Shown: in pieces, positions 21,897 to 28,372 of the stretch
Layout: every line of letters begins with the position of its first letter
Position numbering within the stretch: the first letter of the stretch is position 1
Source: Smithellaceae bacterium
Lineage (GTDB): Bacteria > Desulfobacterota > Syntrophia > Syntrophales > Smithellaceae
Assembly (NCBI GenBank): GCA_035341435.1
Contig: DAOQVG010000001.1
Coordinates: forward strand, 1-28,372
DNA: 28,372 nt
Direction of reading: 5' to 3'
Notes under the pieces: model-generated
What the model was told of the DNA's origin: nothing
What the model saw: only the letters and a program-made list of their open reading frames with translations
Databases searched by the model: none
Made by a program: the position numbers and the translations under genes

Positions 21897-21932
21897 AGCT
21901 GTTTACATATGACAGCTAATGGCGGTAGCCTG
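21897..21932 (+). promoter_or_regulatory. ops element (GGCGGTAGCCTG, 21921-21932) preceded by a JUMPstart-like hairpin
   Basis: Exact match to GGCGGTAGnnTG; hairpin AGCTGT-N9-ACAGCT at 21897-21917; 19 nt before an RfaH-like gene. Confidence 0.85.
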
Positions 21933-21951
21933 CAAAAATCCGGCACAAATA

Positions 21952-22449
21952 ATGAAGAACTGGTACTGCATTTACACCAAGCCCAAAATGGAGGAGACGG
22001 TCAGCGGTCAACTGCTGAATCTGCCGGATATCGAAGTGTTTCAACCCAAACTGAAACGCAGCGGCCTCCGCCGCGGCAAGGTGCAGGAAAAGACGGAGCA
22101 CCTCTTCCCCTGCTATCTTTTCTCCCGCTTTACCCCTTCTCGGTACTATCATTTGATCACGTATACGCGGGGCGTCAAACGCATCATCAGCGATCCGTCG
22201 GGGCATCCCTGCGTGGTGGATGATCGAATCATCGACCAGATCCGCTCCCGGCTTACAGACGGATATATTTACATGGATCAGGCTGTTTTCCATCCCGGGG
22301 ACAAGGTAATGATCCAGGAAGGCCCCCTGGCGGGATTTACCGGCATCTTTCAGCAGCTGAAAGCCCGGGACCGCGTCTTAATGCTTCTCAATTTCATCAA
22401 TTATCAGGCTCGAATCGAAGTAGACGGAAAATACATTACGAAAATTTAA
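21952..22449 (+). CDS. rfaH: RfaH-like (NusG paralog) operon-specific transcription antiterminator
   Basis: 165 aa; WYCIYTK, EHLFPCYLF, TRGV, KOW CTD PGDKVMIQEGPLAGFTGIF...LLNFIN align by eye to E. coli RfaH; start could be 21919. Confidence 0.82.
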   Translation: MKNWYCIYTKPKMEETVSGQLLNLPDIEVFQPKLKRSGLRRGKVQEKTEHLFPCYLFSRFTPSRYYHLITYTRGVKRIISDPSGHPCVVDDRIIDQIRSRLTDGYIYMDQAVFHPGDKVMIQEGPLAGFTGIFQQLKARDRVLMLLNFINYQARIEVDGKYITKI

Positions 22450-22485
22450 TAATAATTCCAAAGTTCCTAAGAAAGGAGATTTGTG

Positions 22486-25329: not shown

Positions 25330-26064
25330 ATGAATCAACTTTCAGCCGCCAGACTGCTGGAGGTTTGGGAACAGGGGTTGTCGGCGACGCCGGTTGAACG
25401 CGCCCTGCTGCTTTTGAGTGCCAACCATGAAGGAGAATCGTGGGATGCGCTGTCCAAACTGAGCATCGGTAAACGCGACGTCCGGCTGTTGCAACTGCGC
25501 GCAGAAACATTCGGCTCTTCCCTGCAGGCGGTTTGCGATTGTCCAAAGTGCGGCGAAACCGTTGAAATGTCTTTCGAGGTCAATGATATTCTTGTCGACA
25601 TGCCGGAAGCGGAGGATGGATTGTTAAGTCTGTCAACAGGAAACTATAATGTTCACTTCCGTCTGCCCGACAGCCGCGACCTTGCAGCGGCGGTTAGTGC
25701 GGGGGACAGATCTCTTGCCGCCCGGCGGCTGCTCCACCGGTGCATCATTGAGGCGCGTCGGGACGATAAGATCATCCCTTCTGATGCACTGTCGCCCAAT
25801 GTATTGGATGCCGTGGCCCAGCGTATCGCCGCGATTGACGCCCAGTCGAATATTGAGTTCGAAATGACCTGCCCCGCCTGCAGTTCCACGTGGGTTTCTC
25901 CCTTTGACATCGGCGCTTTCTTCTGGATGGAAATTTCCGCCTGGGCAAAACGCGTGCTGCGCGACGTCCATACACTGGCCTGCACTTATGGATGGAGCGA
26001 AGAAGAAATACTGGCCCTCAGTCCGGCAAGACGGCAGGCCTACCTGGAGATGGTATCCGGATGA
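25330..26064 (+). CDS. Conserved eCIS accessory protein with two CxxC motifs (often annotated as baseplate or assembly-chaperone-like)
   Basis: CPKCG and CPACS; C-terminal DVHTLACTYGWSEEEILALSPARRQAYLEMV; position right after the tube gene. Confidence 0.7.
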   Translation: MNQLSAARLLEVWEQGLSATPVERALLLLSANHEGESWDALSKLSIGKRDVRLLQLRAETFGSSLQAVCDCPKCGETVEMSFEVNDILVDMPEAEDGLLSLSTGNYNVHFRLPDSRDLAAAVSAGDRSLAARRLLHRCIIEARRDDKIIPSDALSPNVLDAVAQRIAAIDAQSNIEFEMTCPACSSTWVSPFDIGAFFWMEISAWAKRVLRDVHTLACTYGWSEEEILALSPARRQAYLEMVSG

Positions 26065-26987
26065 ATGATTATTTTCAGCATTTGATTGATAATAGCACTG
26101 ATCAGGCTCCGGCCATTCGTCCCCGGTTTTCTTCGGTCTTCGAATTCCCGGATGTTGCCGCCGCTACGGTAAATAATGTTTCGGAAGTTGAAATAATTAA
26201 TCGTCCGGCGGAAAAAACGGAGGGGACGCCGACTGTTCATCCCGGACTTTCCCCGGCAACGGAATTCGCGGATGCACCGGACTCTACTGCAGTTGCTGAT
26301 TTCAGGTCTGAAATAATTCATCACTCGCTGGAAAAAACAGGCATCGATCAGGAAGCAACCACCGCTGCCCCATATAAAGTGTTGTCGGGACAGGAAACAT
26401 CTCCGGAAAAACTTATCCGGGACAAAGCTTCTGAAAAGCATATTAAAGATACCCAAGATGCAACAACATCTTTATACGAAGATACCGTCCGTATATTTCC
26501 CGGCGAGACCGTTGATTCAGTGCACCAGGAAACTGTTATAAATAATGTACGGCCGCAGGCGGCGGCGCCTGATCTTCAGCTGTCAGCTGTTGGTGATGAC
26601 GGTACAAATCAAAAAACGGACACTCTGCCTTCAACCAGGGACGAAGTAGAAAGAATGGCCCAACGAGTTTCTTCCCAGGAAGCCGTGACTGCGGTCTCTA
26701 CATTGGCGCCTTATTCTGAACGATTACATGACTCCCGTGCCGGACTCAAACAGCAGCCAGGAATCCGGCCGCTGACCGCAGCAGAGAACAGACTCCAAAT
26801 GCCGCCAGCCTTCCCTACCCGGGAAGATCGGCCGGAAAGAACAATCAAGGTTACCATCGGACGCATAGAAGTGCGGGCGGTGATGCCGCCGGCGCCTTTA
26901 TCTCAACCACGTACGGTTCCGCAGGAACCGCAGCCGAAAATTTCACTGGAAGACTATCTTAAAAAACAACGGGGAGGCAGCCGATGA
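26061..26987 (+). CDS. eCIS-associated hypothetical protein, low-complexity centre with conserved-looking termini
   Basis: ATGA overlap with the upstream stop and with the downstream start (translational coupling); C-terminal TIKVTIGRIEVRA...ISLEDYL. Confidence 0.72.
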   Translation: MNDYFQHLIDNSTDQAPAIRPRFSSVFEFPDVAAATVNNVSEVEIINRPAEKTEGTPTVHPGLSPATEFADAPDSTAVADFRSEIIHHSLEKTGIDQEATTAAPYKVLSGQETSPEKLIRDKASEKHIKDTQDATTSLYEDTVRIFPGETVDSVHQETVINNVRPQAAAPDLQLSAVGDDGTNQKTDTLPSTRDEVERMAQRVSSQEAVTAVSTLAPYSERLHDSRAGLKQQPGIRPLTAAENRLQMPPAFPTREDRPERTIKVTIGRIEVRAVMPPAPLSQPRTVPQEPQPKISLEDYLKKQRGGSR

Positions 26988-28297
26988 GCAACTATCTGGC
27001 CATAGCCACCGTAACGGAAGCTATCCGGCAGATGCTGGAGAGAGCAATTAAAGCTGATTTTACCGAAACCTTGAATGAAGCCACAGCCACGGCTGTCCGG
27101 CCTAATTCCGGTGCGACTGATCTGCCGAAACTCGGCGTCAACGTCTATCTTTATCAGGTCAGCTATAATACAGCTTTTCGTAATGCCGACATTCCGACGC
27201 GCAGCACTGGAGGCGTCGTTCAGCAGAAGCCGCGCGCCGCACTTGAACTGCACTATCTCTTTTCCTTTTATGGAGAGGAGCGTAAGCTGGAGCCCCAGCA
27301 GGTTATGGGCAGCGTTATCCGCACTTTGCATGCCTCTCCCCAGCTGCCGTCAAAGCATATCAGCCATATCATAGAGACGAGCGGTTTTTTGAACGAATCG
27401 GATCTCGATGCGGAAATTGAACGGATCAAACTGACGCCGCTGCCTTTAACGATTGAAGAATTGTCCAAAATCTGGTCTGTTTTTTTTCAGAATTCTTATA
27501 CTTTATCGATAGCTTATACGGCTTCCGTTGTGTTCATCGAAGGAAAGGAATCGCCAGCGCCGCCGCTGCCCGTAAAAGCCAGGAATGTTTATGCCCTGCC
27601 GGTTGTGTTTCCCGTGATCGACGGCCTGGCGTCGCAGGACGGCGTGGACGAGCCGCTGGTTCCCGGTCAGCGTTTTCTAGCCGGCAAACGGCTGGTTCTC
27701 ACCGGCAAACAACTGCGCGGCGAGAAGACAATCGTCATAATTGATGAACAAGTAATTGCCGCCGCGCAGATTCTGGAAGTTGAAAATAACCGGATCACAA
27801 TTTTACTGCCCGCGGACCTGCGCGCCGGTATTCACAGCATTTCGGTTGTCCAGAAACTGATGATCGGCGAGCCGCCGGCGGAGCATTCGGGCGTAGAATC
27901 AAACAGCCTGGCGTTTCTTTTGTGTCCGACCGTTGCCGTTCCCGCTGGGCCGGTTACCCCGGTTGGGACGCCGGAAAATGGAAAGACGATTTACACCTTA
28001 ACCATTCCGGTCGGGCTGTCCCCCGCCTGCGGACGCAATTCACGAGTGTTTCTCCTGCTCAATGAATATCAGGAGATCAATGCCGCACCGCCGGTGATTT
28101 ACCGGATCGCCGCCCCGGAAAACAACGGCATCACCGATCCGGCTGTGACGGAAACCGGCGCCATTAACTTTGCCATGAAAACATCGATTAAACCCAAAGC
28201 AGGAAAATATTTTGTCCGCATCAACGTAGACGGTGCGGGAAACCCCGTTAATTTTGATCCGCCTGGTCCGCTGGTGGAGATTAAAGATGTCCCCTGA
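26984..28297 (+). CDS. DUF4255 / Pvc16-Afp16-like tail cap (terminator) protein with C-terminal Ig-like extensions
   Basis: MSNYLAIATVT, VNVYLYQV, LELHYL, EELSKIWS, YTLSIAYTASVVFIE, then beta-rich IPT/TIG-like segments. Confidence 0.82.
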   Translation: MSNYLAIATVTEAIRQMLERAIKADFTETLNEATATAVRPNSGATDLPKLGVNVYLYQVSYNTAFRNADIPTRSTGGVVQQKPRAALELHYLFSFYGEERKLEPQQVMGSVIRTLHASPQLPSKHISHIIETSGFLNESDLDAEIERIKLTPLPLTIEELSKIWSVFFQNSYTLSIAYTASVVFIEGKESPAPPLPVKARNVYALPVVFPVIDGLASQDGVDEPLVPGQRFLAGKRLVLTGKQLRGEKTIVIIDEQVIAAAQILEVENNRITILLPADLRAGIHSISVVQKLMIGEPPAEHSGVESNSLAFLLCPTVAVPAGPVTPVGTPENGKTIYTLTIPVGLSPACGRNSRVFLLLNEYQEINAAPPVIYRIAAPENNGITDPAVTETGAINFAMKTSIKPKAGKYFVRINVDGAGNPVNFDPPGPLVEIKDVP

Positions 28298-28372
28298 TAT
28301 CGCTGGCAACTGGGTCGAAACCAACCAGCGCTGCCTTATGGCAGCCATAGCGTCCATTAAGCAGCGTCTGGA
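28287..28372 (+). CDS. 5' fragment of the next eCIS gene, probably the AAA+ ATPase (truncated by the window edge)
   Basis: ATG 28287 with SD GGAG; MSPDIAGNWVETNQRCLMAAIASIKQRL; open to the window end; the ATPase call rests on usual gene order only. Confidence 0.5.
   Translation, partial: MSPDIAGNWVETNQRCLMAAIASIKQRL

What the first reader, a model, noticed from the sequence alone, without database searches (positions are those of the whole stretch)
21897..28372. Contractile injection system operon with a dedicated RfaH/ops module in a probable anaerobic syntroph-type bacterium
Seen: rfaH-like, sheath, tube, CxxC protein, low-complexity protein, DUF4255 cap and probable ATPase, all translationally coupled; no head or packaging genes in view. 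Established: eCIS (Afp, PVC, MAC, Streptomyces CIS) are phage-tail-derived protein injectors, and Serratia Afp is controlled by an RfaH-type factor and ops. Inference: this gene order differs from Afp/PVC (single sheath, cap early) and resembles the lineage that includes actinobacterial CIS. Pairing it with an enterobacterial-style ops/RfaH switch in a Desulfobacterota-like host looks like an uncharacterised system. Targets could be partner or competitor microbes or protists, or it may act intracellularly. Baseplate, spike and effector genes should follow beyond the window.
Basis: partly seen in the sequence, partly recalled or inferred. Interest (0 to 1): 0.88.

Follow-up and report, generated by a model that had tools for sequence, protein, structure and literature searches.

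The report
RfaH-type antiterminator heading a Smithella injection-system operon
A syntrophic Smithella bacterium carries the start of a phage-tail-like injection-system operon. Its first gene is an RfaH-like anti-termination factor, preceded by that factor's own conserved loading signal. This is a real, expressed variant of a control scheme already known from insect-pathogen injection systems.

Summary
Window 21952-28372 (+) encodes, in order:
- an RfaH-like NusG paralog
- one long sheath
- a gp19 tube
- a 2xCxxC gp51-like chaperone
- a disordered protein
- a Pvc16/DUF4255 cap
- the first 27 codons of an AAA+ ATPase

The contig ends there, and this 71%-complete MAG lacks the rest. Syntenic Smithellaceae relatives continue with ATPase, DUF4157 cargo, tube initiator, split spike, PAAR-like, gp25, two Baseplate_J-like genes and P2-I/LamG proteins. 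None of the Pfam-scanned ORFs there is a capsid or terminase gene.

GGCGGTAGCCTG sits 19 nt before the SD-less rfaH-like start. Together with a hairpin 3 nt upstream, it is conserved in Smithella and Nitrospiraceae loci. About 50 of 74 assessable loci of this RfaH-like family carry hairpin+ops beside the gene. The ops-before-gene arrangement marks one mostly CIS-linked clade.

In 101 family genomes, all 5 with this CIS have the adjacent factor. RNA-library contigs cover the operon and begin at 21726, just after a predicted promoter.

Gene content and sheath similarity point to lineage II, subtype IIa-like (haloarchaeal), more than Streptomyces IId. RfaH/ops control of eCIS (AnfA1-Afp, PVC), in-operon NusG paralogs and JUMPstart hairpins are already published. 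I rate it a new variant of a known kind.

The parts
21623..21651 (+). Intrinsic terminator closing the upstream LTXXQ/Spy-like gene. It marks the 5' boundary of the CIS transcription unit.
   Evidence: 12-bp stem followed by a T-run. The sequence is visible.
21676..21705 (+). Sigma-70-type promoter-like site, TTGACA-N18-TATCTT, with TG before the -10 hexamer.
   Evidence: It matches 10 of 12 consensus positions and is the only + strand candidate in 21380-22520. It is conserved in L010 and L011. RNA-library contigs from two independent studies both begin at 21726, with no coverage of 21491-21725.
21897..21917 (+). Hairpin (AGCUGUU ... GACAGCU) ending 3 nt before ops. This is a JUMPstart-like stem-loop.
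   Evidence: Folding. In 36 of 49 distinct ops sites of the family, a hairpin ends 3-4 nt before ops, and the stem sequences differ between sites. Mean MFE is -6.6 kcal/mol against -3.6 for shuffles (Wilcoxon p = 1.5e-13).
21921..21932 (+). ops-like element GGCGGTAGCCTG. It matches the E. coli consensus GGCGGTAGNNTG.
   Evidence: It is the only match in the window, expected 0.04 times. It is invariant within ATGACrGyTwATGGCGGTAGCCTG in 3 Smithella loci and 1 Nitrospiraceae locus, while the flanks diverge. The extended family consensus is shown.
21952..22449 (+). RfaH-like specialised NusG paralog, 165 aa. It is the first gene of the operon and has no Shine-Dalgarno sequence.
   Evidence: PF02357. 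By NCBIfam score, RfaH is above UpxY, LoaP and NusG. The best PDB match is E. coli RfaH, 2e-16 over the full length. The AF2 model has pLDDT 85.7 and matches the RfaH NGN domain at rmsd 1.7-2.3 A.
22486..24789 (+). Single long CIS sheath (Cis2/Afp2-like), 767 aa, with a large internal insertion.
   Evidence: PF04984 and PF17482. PDB matches are 9ezm (haloarchaeal CIS, 1e-82), Streptomyces-type 8bky (1e-78) and Pvc2 (1.7e-51).
24802..25326 (+). Tube protein (gp19/Afp1-like), 174 aa.
   Evidence: PF06841, 1.5e-46. It is 91-100% identical in Smithellaceae relatives.
25330..26064 (+). gp51-like baseplate-hub assembly chaperone family protein, 244 aa, with two CxxC motifs.
   Evidence: PF12322, 1.9e-15. 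CPKC at 71 and CPAC at 181. Atlas clusters carry the name 'T4 family baseplate hub assembly chaperone'. It holds the same position in related CIS loci.
26061..26987 (+). Disordered A/T/P/E/R-rich protein, 308 aa from ATG 26061. Its C-terminal ~45 aa are conserved. Its role is unknown; it may be a tape-measure-like or assembly factor.
   Evidence: No Pfam or NCBIfam hit. Only the C-terminus is conserved across phyla.
26984..28297 (+). Tail terminator/cap (Pvc16/Afp16, DUF4255), 437 aa, with a ~240-aa C-terminal extension.
   Evidence: PF14065, 3.9e-43, on residues 9-198. 102 relatives were found in genome contigs.
28287..28372 (+). First 27 codons of the Afp15-like AAA+ ATPase, cut off by the contig end.
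   Evidence: 82% identical to the N-terminus of the 671-aa AAA+WHD protein of L011.

Best explanation
This is the 5' third of a roughly 25-kb operon for a phage-tail-derived contractile injection system in a Smithella genome. The system belongs to eCIS lineage II and looks like subtype IIa.

Proposed mechanism:
1. Transcription starts at a sigma-70-type promoter near 21705-21726.
2. It reads through a ~200-nt leader that contains a hairpin, a 3-nt spacer and the ops element GGCGGTAGCCTG on the non-template strand.
3. RNA polymerase pauses at ops. The RfaH-like NusG paralog, encoded immediately downstream as the first gene, loads onto the polymerase through its NGN domain.
4. The loaded factor excludes NusG and Rho. 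This makes the polymerase processive through sheath, tube, chaperone, cap, ATPase, cargo, spike and baseplate genes.
5. The rfaH-like gene lies downstream of its own ops and lacks a Shine-Dalgarno sequence. Loading should therefore also raise its own synthesis, giving a positive loop.
6. The same factor probably serves a second hairpin+ops in trans, at a polysaccharide operon on contig C177.

What is shown: gene identities, conservation and co-inheritance of the ops, hairpin and factor, and presence of the locus in RNA libraries.

What is inferred: pausing, loading, antitermination and the feedback loop. Whether the particle is released, membrane-bound or cytoplasmic is undetermined.
For: The operon in syntenic relatives (85-100% identical proteins) continues as follows:
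- AAA+ ATPase
- DUF4157 proteins
- CIS_tube
- GPD
- Phage_base_V
- DUF4280/PAAR
- gp25
- two Baseplate_J-like genes
- Tail_P2_I/Mu gp48-like
- DUF6519+LamG

None of the Pfam-scanned ORFs there matches a capsid or terminase family.

Evidence on ops:
- It is unique in the window.
- It is invariant in 4 divergent loci whose flanks are not conserved.
- Among 80 CIS loci fetched by the cap protein, ops occurs only in the 4 that also carry the RfaH-like gene.

Survey of 101 Smithellaceae genomes:
- The factor is present in 7.
- This CIS is present in 5.
- In all 5 the two are adjacent, about 2.85 kb apart on the same strand.

Family-wide survey of 87 full-length RfaH-like loci:
- 13 have GGCGGTAGC within 150 nt upstream of the gene.
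- 39 have it within 450 nt downstream.
- 22 have none, and 13 are too short to judge.
- Chance expectation is about 0.002 per locus.

Tree: the upstream arrangement maps to one clade (support 95/78) made of CIS-linked loci from Smithellaceae, Nitrospiraceae and GCA_003354025.1, plus one separate CIS-linked locus, L144.

Hairpin: it ends 3-4 nt before ops in 36 of 49 sites with covarying stems.

Residues K10, T72 and R73, needed by E. coli RfaH at ops (PMC2871177), are nearly invariant in the family.

The canonical NusG lies elsewhere, between secE and rplK.

RNA-library contigs from four studies cover rfaH-like through cap. Two of them start at exactly 21726.

Precedent: AnfA1 with ops for Afp, and ops upstream of pvc1 (PMC6748792).
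Against: - No experiment supports the mechanism. Antitermination, pausing and self-loading are all inferred.
- The protein scores below NCBIfam's RfaH equivalog cut-off (105 against 144.5 bits).
- It lacks the E. coli ops-contact residues R16 and H20 and the HTT motif.
- AF2 gives an ambiguous, mixed alpha/beta C-terminal domain, so autoinhibition and fold switching are unresolved.
- The degenerate ops pattern is not enriched genome-wide: 3 sites against about 3.5 expected.
- No internal terminators above chance were found for the factor to suppress.
- Baseplate, spike and cargo genes are absent from this 71%-complete MAG. Completeness of this copy is unproven.
- Logan contigs carry no strand information, and DNA carry-over cannot be fully excluded.
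Confidence: 0.75

Rival explanations
1. The cluster makes a contractile system that is not released. It could be anchored to the cytoplasmic membrane and fire outward on cell contact, as in the haloarchaeal clade IIa 'T6SS-like' CIS. Or it could be free in the cytoplasm and cause regulated cell death, as in Streptomyces. The RfaH/ops control would be unchanged. Only the mode of action differs from the 'extracellular' reading.
For: - The closest solved sheaths are exactly these two non-extracellular systems: 9ezm (1e-82) and 8bky/8bl4 (about 1e-78). They rank far above Pvc2 and Afp2 (PMC11566945).
- Subtype IIa traits (two afp11 copies, split afp8) are present in relatives (PMC6899500).
- DUF4157 proteins sit in a variable region in the middle of the cluster, as in Halogeometricum.
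Against: - A simple hydrophobicity scan found no multi-pass membrane protein comparable to Hbor_38620 in the relatives' clusters.
- The cluster ends with P2-I-like and DUF6519+Laminin-G proteins, which could be receptor-binding parts of a released particle.
- The same MAG already has a canonical T6SS.
Confidence: 0.35
2. The RfaH-like gene is a general, trans-acting regulator of surface-structure operons that merely happens to lie next to the CIS. The CIS is one of several targets rather than having a module of its own.
For: - An identical 12-mer, with a hairpin ending 3 nt upstream, lies in the leader of a polysaccharide operon on C177. That operon encodes a MocA-type oxidoreductase, a hexapeptide transferase, FkbM and a flippase.
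- Most members of the wider family precede polysaccharide operons, with ops after the gene.
- Orthologous cassettes head a surface-protein operon and a peptidase gene in sister genomes.
Against: - The factor is accessory, found in 7 of 101 family genomes. It tracks the CIS in 5 of the 5 genomes that have this CIS.
- In 5 relatives the exact 12-mer occurs once per genome, always in front of the factor.
- The ops-upstream clade is mostly CIS-linked across phyla.
- Only 36 nt separate the factor from the sheath gene, with no terminator between them.
Confidence: 0.2
3. The locus is a prophage tail module or an R-type tailocin, not a cargo-injecting CIS.
For: Sheath, tube and gp51-like chaperone families are shared with myophages. 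This MAG shows only the 5' part of the cluster.
Against: - Pvc16/DUF4255 cap, Afp15-type AAA+/WHD ATPase and DUF4157 'eCIS core' proteins are eCIS hallmarks (PMC8213781).
- In the 571-kb contig of a near-identical relative, none of the Pfam-scanned larger ORFs over about 36 kb around the cluster matches a capsid, portal or terminase family; not every ORF was scanned.
- Sheath similarity to T4 gp18 is marginal, at 1e-4.
Confidence: 0.04
4. The GGCGGTAGCCTG motif is a chance match or a binding site for an unrelated regulator, and the NusG-like gene is an independent neighbour.
For: The degenerate pattern occurs at chance frequency genome-wide. Rfam's JUMPstart model does not match the site.
Against: - The motif is strictly co-located with RfaH-like genes: 52 of 74 assessable loci, against about 0.002 per locus expected.
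- It sits at a fixed distance from a covarying hairpin.
- It is invariant across phyla while the flanks diverge.
- It is absent from all 76 related CIS loci that lack the factor.
Confidence: 0.02

Closest known systems
Serratia entomophila Afp with its linked RfaH homologue AnfA1, and Photorhabdus PVC operons with ops upstream of pvc1
   Same: A phage-tail-like injection-system operon whose leader carries GGCGGTAGNNT(G). It is activated by an RfaH-type factor, which in Afp is encoded next to the cluster (PMC6748792; PMC8213781 Fig. 7).
   Different: - Those systems are gammaproteobacterial lineage I eCIS. They have three sheath paralogs, a contiguous VgrG and the cap as last structural gene.
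- Here the host is a Thermodesulfobacteriota syntroph and the CIS is lineage II, with one sheath and the cap and ATPase placed early.
- The factor is the first cistron, downstream of its own ops.
- Sheath similarity to Pvc2/Afp2 is much lower than to class II sheaths.
Haloarchaeal clade IIa CIS (Halogeometricum borinquense 'archaeal T6SS') and Streptomyces CIS (IId)
   Same: - They give the best solved-sheath matches: 9ezm at 1e-82 and 8bky/8bl4 at about 1e-78.
- Relatives share the IIa traits of two afp11 copies, a split afp8 and DUF4157 genes in a mid-cluster variable region.
   Different: - No 6-TM anchor homologue was seen.
- The sheath is about 200-230 aa longer.
- The host is a diderm bacterium.
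- The papers read here mention no NusG-type regulator for those systems.
- The mode of action here is unknown.
E. coli RfaH with ops/JUMPstart (Rfam RF01707)
   Same: - The 12-mer fits the E. coli ops consensus at all 10 specified positions.
- A stem-loop sits just upstream, as reported for JUMPstart (PMC2864571).
- K10, T72, R73, Y54-equivalent, W4 and Y5 are conserved.
- The targets are long operons for extracellular or surface structures.
   Different: - Identity is only about 30%, and the score is below the RfaH equivalog cut-off.
- R16, H20 and the HTT motif are not conserved.
- The gene is linked to its target rather than monocistronic and trans-acting.
- The Rfam JUMPstart model gives no hit at E <= 1.
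- The C-terminal domain state is predicted as mixed.
In-operon NusG paralogs: Bacteroides UpxY, Myxococcus TaA, Shewanella CL7 RfaHs, and 'monomorphic' or mixed-CTD RfaHs next to long operons
   Same: The specialised paralog is encoded within or beside the long operon it is thought to activate (PMC7593976; PMC13015549). AF2 predicts a mixed alpha/beta CTD, a class which that preprint links to adjacent operons.
   Different: - This family keeps a canonical ops. The monomorphic homologs in the preprint lack some ops-binding residues and act without ops.
- The cargo operon here is a CIS. The papers read list polysaccharide, secretion, tra and polyketide operons, but none outside Afp/PVC lists a CIS.

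Membership tests
RfaH subfamily of NusG (NusG-SP) | NGN domain plus a C-terminal KOW-length domain, about 160 aa, encoded away from the secE-nusG-rplK locus | tested here: met
   PF02357 over residues 2-98 of the 165-aa protein. 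Full-length alignment to E. coli RfaH. The canonical NusG sits between secE and rplK on C124.
RfaH subfamily of NusG (NusG-SP) | Scores above the curated RfaH equivalog threshold (TIGR01955 / NF006534) | tested here: not met
   105.3 bits against a cut-off of 144.5, and 94.4 against 124. RfaH is nevertheless the best-scoring model, ahead of UpxY (80.8), LoaP (58.8) and NusG (39.3). I therefore file it as 'RfaH-like', not as an RfaH equivalog.
RfaH subfamily of NusG (NusG-SP) | A cognate ops element (GGCGGTAGNNTG) on the non-template strand in the leader of target operons | tested here: met
   The family consensus is RATGGCGGTAGCYTG, found beside the gene in 52 of 74 assessable loci.
RfaH subfamily of NusG (NusG-SP) | The ops-binding residue cluster K10, R16, H20, T72, R73 (Belogurov 2010, PMC2871177) | tested here: inconclusive
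   K10, T72 and R73 are kept and nearly invariant in 77 homologs. R16 aligns to T, and H20 aligns to a non-conserved L or Q.
RfaH subfamily of NusG (NusG-SP) | An autoinhibited alpha-hairpin CTD that refolds to a beta-barrel (fold switch) | tested here: inconclusive
   The AF2 model has three short strands plus a helix at 138-152, with pLDDT 62-83 in the CTD. This corresponds to the 'mixed alpha/beta' class of PMC13015549.
RfaH subfamily of NusG (NusG-SP) | ops-dependent loading on paused RNAP and suppression of polarity | not testable with these tools
   This needs in vitro transcription or reporter assays.
eCIS / Afp-PVC-like contractile injection systems | Sheath, tube and Afp16/Pvc16 (DUF4255) cap in one cluster | tested here: met
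eCIS / Afp-PVC-like contractile injection systems | Afp15-type AAA+ ATPase | tested here: inconclusive
   Only 27 codons remain before the contig end. They are 82% identical to the start of a 671-aa AAA+WHD protein in L011.
eCIS / Afp-PVC-like contractile injection systems | Baseplate and spike set (gp25, Baseplate_J, gp27/gp5 spike, PAAR) | tested here: inconclusive
   The set is absent from this 71%-complete MAG. There is no Baseplate_J, and the only gp25 hit is TssE of a T6SS. The set is present and syntenic in relatives L010 and G032.
eCIS / Afp-PVC-like contractile injection systems | No capsid, portal or terminase genes. DUF4157-marked cargo genes present. | tested here: inconclusive
   Checked only in close relatives, on the larger ORFs. 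No head or packaging family matched over about 36 kb, and DUF4157 proteins of 372 and 873 aa are present. It is not testable in this contig.
eCIS lineage II, subtype IIa (Chen et al. 2019) | Two afp11 copies. afp8 split into gp27-like and gp5-like ORFs. afp10 (PAAR) present. | tested here: met
   In relative G032/L010: Baseplate_J-like proteins of 854 and 913 aa, GPD of 417 aa plus Phage_base_V of 166 aa, and DUF4280/PAAR of 105 aa. Criteria are from PMC6899500. No Afp8/Afp11 phylogeny was done.
JUMPstart RNA motif (Rfam RF01707) | Match to the Rfam covariance model | tested here: not met
   No RF01707 hit at E <= 1 in 21400-22600. The architecture of a stem-loop next to ops is nevertheless present.
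Type VI secretion system | TssB/TssC sheath, TssK/F/G baseplate and DotU/TssM membrane complex | tested here: not met
   None are in this cluster. A separate canonical T6SS lies on contig C5.

The most novel reading that the evidence does not exclude
The ops-hairpin placed in front of an SD-less rfaH-like first cistron forms a self-loading positive-feedback switch. Once a little factor exists, it loads at its own leader, recruits ribosomes to its own mRNA and drives the whole 25-kb operon. The result would be all-or-none CIS production in a subpopulation of a slow-growing syntroph. The particle could then act on syntrophic partners or competitors such as Methanothrix-type archaea, whose family carries a related CIS cap gene.
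Probability: 0.2. Interest if true: 0.75.

Novelty: new variant of a known kind. Interest (0 to 1): 0.5.

Why it matters
- No paper in the searched library links Smithella to a contractile injection system. This locus is a concrete, in-situ-transcribed candidate in that key syntroph of methanogenic digesters and hydrocarbon degradation. Cell-cell weapons or delivery devices there could shape partner and competitor relations.
- The canonical ops signal and its JUMPstart-like hairpin are not confined to enteric bacteria. They accompany a large environmental RfaH-like family in Thermodesulfobacteriota, Nitrospirota and metagenomes.
- One clade has moved the signal in front of the factor's own gene and travels with lineage II CIS clusters.
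- This gives a compact promoter-leader-factor cassette. It could be tested for its role in expressing long CIS operons, and it is a natural test case for the proposed cis-to-trans evolution of RfaH.

Tried and rejected
1. Search for the rest of the operon in the MAG.
   - Baseplate_J gave no hit. The single gp25 hit is TssE of an unrelated T6SS on C5.
   - tblastn with 14 downstream proteins of relatives found only the ATPase start at the end of C1.
2. Genome-wide enrichment of GGCGGTAGNNTG.
   - There is none: 3 sites against about 3.5 expected. The reversed-pattern control is equal or higher in 5 relatives.
   - Significance therefore rests on position and conservation, not on counts.
   - The third site (C188) is antisense inside a PPDK gene and was dismissed.
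3. RNAalifold on an ungapped ops-anchored alignment.
   - It missed the upstream hairpin because loop lengths vary. It found only the GGC/GCC mini-stem inside ops.
   - Per-sequence folding with shuffles was used instead.
4. Rfam scan: no JUMPstart hit, only sub-threshold noise on the terminator.
5. PDB sequence searches with the cap and the gp51-like protein found nothing.
6. Scan for internal terminators in the operon: no more than chance.
7. Search for a membrane anchor in the relatives' clusters found none.
8. The idea that the C253 NusG paralog is the ops reader was set aside. It is UpxY-family and has no ops nearby.

Full report
**Context.** The window is the entire contig C1 of a 1.84-Mb, 283-contig MAG that is 71% complete. 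Close relatives found with the cap protein are titled Smithella or Smithellaceae, and the tree tool places them in Thermodesulfobacteriota.

**Anatomy of the region.**
- An intrinsic terminator at 21623-21651 closes the upstream LTXXQ/Spy-like gene.
- The only promoter-like site is TTGACA-N18-TATCTT at 21676-21705. It is conserved in the two closest relatives.
- The + strand genes follow. Their domain evidence is:
  - RfaH-like gene, 21952-22449
  - sheath, 22486-24789
  - tube, 24802-25326
  - a 244-aa protein with two CxxC motifs of the T4 gp51-like hub-chaperone family, 25330-26064
  - a disordered protein best started at ATG 26061, ending at 26987
  - a 437-aa Pvc16/DUF4255 cap, 26984-28297
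  - 27 codons of an AAA+ ATPase
- Gaps between successive genes are 36, 12, 3, -4, -4 and -11 nt.
- The rfaH-like start has no Shine-Dalgarno sequence. The sheath, tube, cap and ATPase starts each have one.

**The rest of the operon.** This MAG lacks it.
- There is no Baseplate_J hit.
- The only gp25 hit is TssE of a separate canonical T6SS on contig C5.
- tblastn with 14 downstream proteins of relatives finds only the ATPase start.

In syntenic relatives (L010; G032, which is the same record as L011) the shared proteins are 66-100% identical. There the cluster continues as follows:
- a 671-aa AAA+/WHD ATPase
- a variable stretch with DUF4157 'eCIS core' proteins: 372 aa with a transglutaminase-like domain in one relative, 873 aa in the other
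- CIS_tube
- GPD
- Phage_base_V
- DUF4280/PAAR
- gp25
- two Baseplate_J-like proteins
- a P2-I/Mu gp48-like protein
- a DUF6519+Laminin-G protein

None of the Pfam-scanned larger ORFs over about 36 kb matches a capsid, portal or terminase family.

**Which kind of CIS.**
- The best solved sheaths are the haloarchaeal 9ezm (1e-82) and the Streptomyces-type 8bky/8bl4 (about 1e-78). Pvc2, Afp2, Anabaena and Algoriphagus sheaths score far lower.
- 9ezm belongs to a clade IIa system that is bound to the cytoplasmic membrane and acts by cell contact (PMC11566945).
- Chen et al. define IIa/IIc by two afp11 copies and a split afp8 (PMC6899500). The relatives show both traits.
- The system is therefore lineage II and IIa-like. 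It is related to, but not the same subtype as, the actinobacterial IId systems.
- No multi-pass membrane anchor was found.
- The mode of action (released, anchored or cytoplasmic) is open.

**The RfaH-like factor.**
- NCBIfam ranks RfaH (105 bits) above UpxY, LoaP and NusG, but below the equivalog cut-off.
- E. coli RfaH is the best PDB match over the full length (2e-16).
- The AF2 model (pLDDT 85.7) superposes on the RfaH NGN domain at 1.7-2.3 A.
- W4, Y5, Y8, K10, the Y54-equivalent, T72 and R73 are nearly invariant in 77 homologs. K10, T72 and R73 are among the five residues needed at ops in E. coli. R16 and H20 are not kept.
- The predicted C-terminal domain is mixed strand and helix. A 2026 preprint associates this class with rfaH genes that lie beside long operons (PMC13015549).
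- The MAG also has the canonical NusG (secE-nusG-rplK, C124) and a UpxY-family paralog on C253.

**The ops element.**
- GGCGGTAGCCTG at 21921-21932 is the only match in the window, expected 0.04 times.
- It lies inside a block ATGACrGyTwATGGCGGTAGCCTG that is invariant in three Smithella loci and a Nitrospiraceae locus, while the surrounding leader diverges.
- Among 80 CIS loci retrieved with the cap protein, ops occurs only in the four that also have the RfaH-like gene. At least 13 of the other loci keep the same gene order but have neither.
- In 101 Smithellaceae genomes the factor occurs in 7 and this CIS in 5. All 5 have the factor about 2.85 kb upstream on the same strand.
- The two remaining genomes carry the same ops+factor cassette in front of a surface-protein operon. 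A further ortholog precedes a clostripain-like peptidase and has a decayed ops.

**Family-wide survey.**
- Homologs are abundant in metagenomes: 113 clusters.
- In 87 loci with a full-length gene, GGCGGTAGC lies within 150 nt upstream in 13 and within 450 nt downstream in 39. It is absent in 22, and 13 loci are too short to judge. Chance expectation is about 0.002 per locus.
- Members with ops downstream of the gene precede polysaccharide operons where this was checked.
- In a maximum-likelihood tree, the ops-upstream arrangement forms one clade (support 95/78). It contains CIS-linked loci from GCA_003354025.1, Nitrospiraceae and Smithellaceae. One further CIS-linked locus (L144) lies elsewhere on a long branch.
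- In 36 of 49 distinct sites a hairpin ends 3-4 nt before ops, and the stems differ in sequence. Mean MFE is -6.6 kcal/mol against -3.6 for shuffles and -2.5 for a downstream control (p = 1.5e-13; the window's own fold is).
- This mirrors the stem-loop reported for gammaproteobacterial JUMPstart elements (PMC2864571). Rfam's model does not match here.

**A second target in this genome.** The same 12-mer, with a hairpin ending 3 nt upstream, sits in the leader of a polysaccharide operon on C177. The factor is thus probably not exclusive to the CIS in this genome. In five relatives, however, the exact 12-mer occurs once per genome, in front of the factor.

**Expression.**
- Many RNA-labelled public runs from digesters, sludge and sediment hold the locus.
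- Logan contigs of four runs cover rfaH-like through cap.
- In two independent studies a contig begins at exactly 21726, about 20 nt after the predicted -10 hexamer. There is no coverage of 21491-21725.
- One 3.9-kb contig spans sheath to the disordered protein.
- In two runs depth falls right after the tube gene.
- Contigs have no strand, and DNA carry-over cannot be excluded. This is supportive evidence, not proof.

**Comparison with what is known.**
- RfaH-type control of eCIS is published for Afp (AnfA1) and inferred for PVC operons with ops (PMC6748792). It appears in the eCIS model of Geller et al. (PMC8213781).
- NusG paralogs encoded in their target operons are known (PMC7593976).
- RfaH homologs were reported in 23 phyla, with about 95% in Proteobacteria.
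- Searches found no paper linking Smithella to CIS. A CIS metagenome survey does not mention NusG or RfaH regulators.

**Verdict.** It is a new variant of a known kind rather than a new category. Three things are new:
- the host and the CIS lineage;
- the ops-before-factor, SD-less first-cistron layout shared by a cross-phylum, CIS-linked clade;
- the breadth of the ops+hairpin signal in an environmental RfaH-like family.

Noticed in passing
G000 contig C5 (L003) 2389-17742, minus strand: A canonical T6SS cluster lies in the same MAG as the CIS. It includes TssB, TssC, TssK, TssE, TssF, TssG-like, DotU, ImpA_N and PAAR. Chen et al. 2019 report that eCIS and T6SS rarely co-occur in one genome.
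   Followed up: partly
G000 contig C177 (L004) 410-445, + strand: A second exact GGCGGTAGCCTG, with a hairpin ending 3 nt upstream, lies in the leader of a polysaccharide operon. That operon encodes a MocA-type oxidoreductase, a hexapeptide acyltransferase, an FkbM methyltransferase and a Wzx-like flippase. It is a probable trans target of the RfaH-like factor.
   Followed up: partly
G000 contig C253 (L009) 1812-2327, minus strand: A third NusG-family gene scores above the UpxY-family cut-off (111 bits against 100). It stands alone upstream of a 2-oxoacid:ferredoxin oxidoreductase operon, with no ops nearby.
   Followed up: no
window 21431-21563; also L009 about 2335-2500 and at least 60 other places in the MAG: A MITE/REP-like element of about 133 bp with terminal inverted repeats (GGCCTCGTAAAAAGGCCG ... 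CGGCCTTTTTACGAGGCC). blastn gives 65 hits at 70-93% identity in 1.84 Mb. It shows as a depth spike with many loose ends in the RNA-library contigs.
   Followed up: partly
L103 (G021:C5) 1977-12278, and L102 (G064:C78): In two sister genomes, an orthologous ops+rfaH-like cassette (69% identical) heads a different operon. That operon encodes an 863-aa beta-propeller/Ig-fn3 surface protein, five paralogous ~210-aa CarboxypepD_reg-like proteins, a 699-aa protein and a PG-binding+CHAP hydrolase.
   Followed up: partly
L018 (Methanotrichaceae archaeon MAG), 651-1904: A cap (Pvc16) homolog 40% identical to the window's occurs in a Methanotrichaceae archaeon. By background knowledge this is the family of Smithella's usual methanogenic partners. 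Anaerolineae and Nitrospiraceae MAGs also carry near relatives, which suggests exchange within anaerobic consortia.
   Followed up: no
L010 13299-15835 versus L011 13240-16833: The stretch between the ATPase and the tube-initiator genes differs between two very close relatives. One has a 372-aa DUF4157+transglutaminase-like protein plus 100- and 384-aa ORFs. The other has an 873-aa DUF4157 protein. It looks like a swappable cargo region in the middle of the cluster, as in the haloarchaeal IIa system.
   Followed up: partly
window 25264-25340: In two metatranscriptome runs (X6, X8) contig depth drops from about 15-17 to about 0-1.5 right after the tube gene. This could reflect attenuation or processing that favours sheath and tube mRNA. 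The depth measure is crude.
   Followed up: no
window 22486-24789: The sheath is about 200-230 aa longer than its closest solved relatives (767 aa against 534-574). The PDB hits align in two stretches, so there is a large internal insertion.
   Followed up: no
A3 columns 25-34 (ops positions 1-10): In this family ops position 10 is C or T. GGC...GCC(C/U) can therefore form a 3-bp mini-hairpin (G1:C/U10, G2:C9, C3:G8) around the GGUA loop. That is one pair more than the E. coli consensus allows.
   Followed up: no
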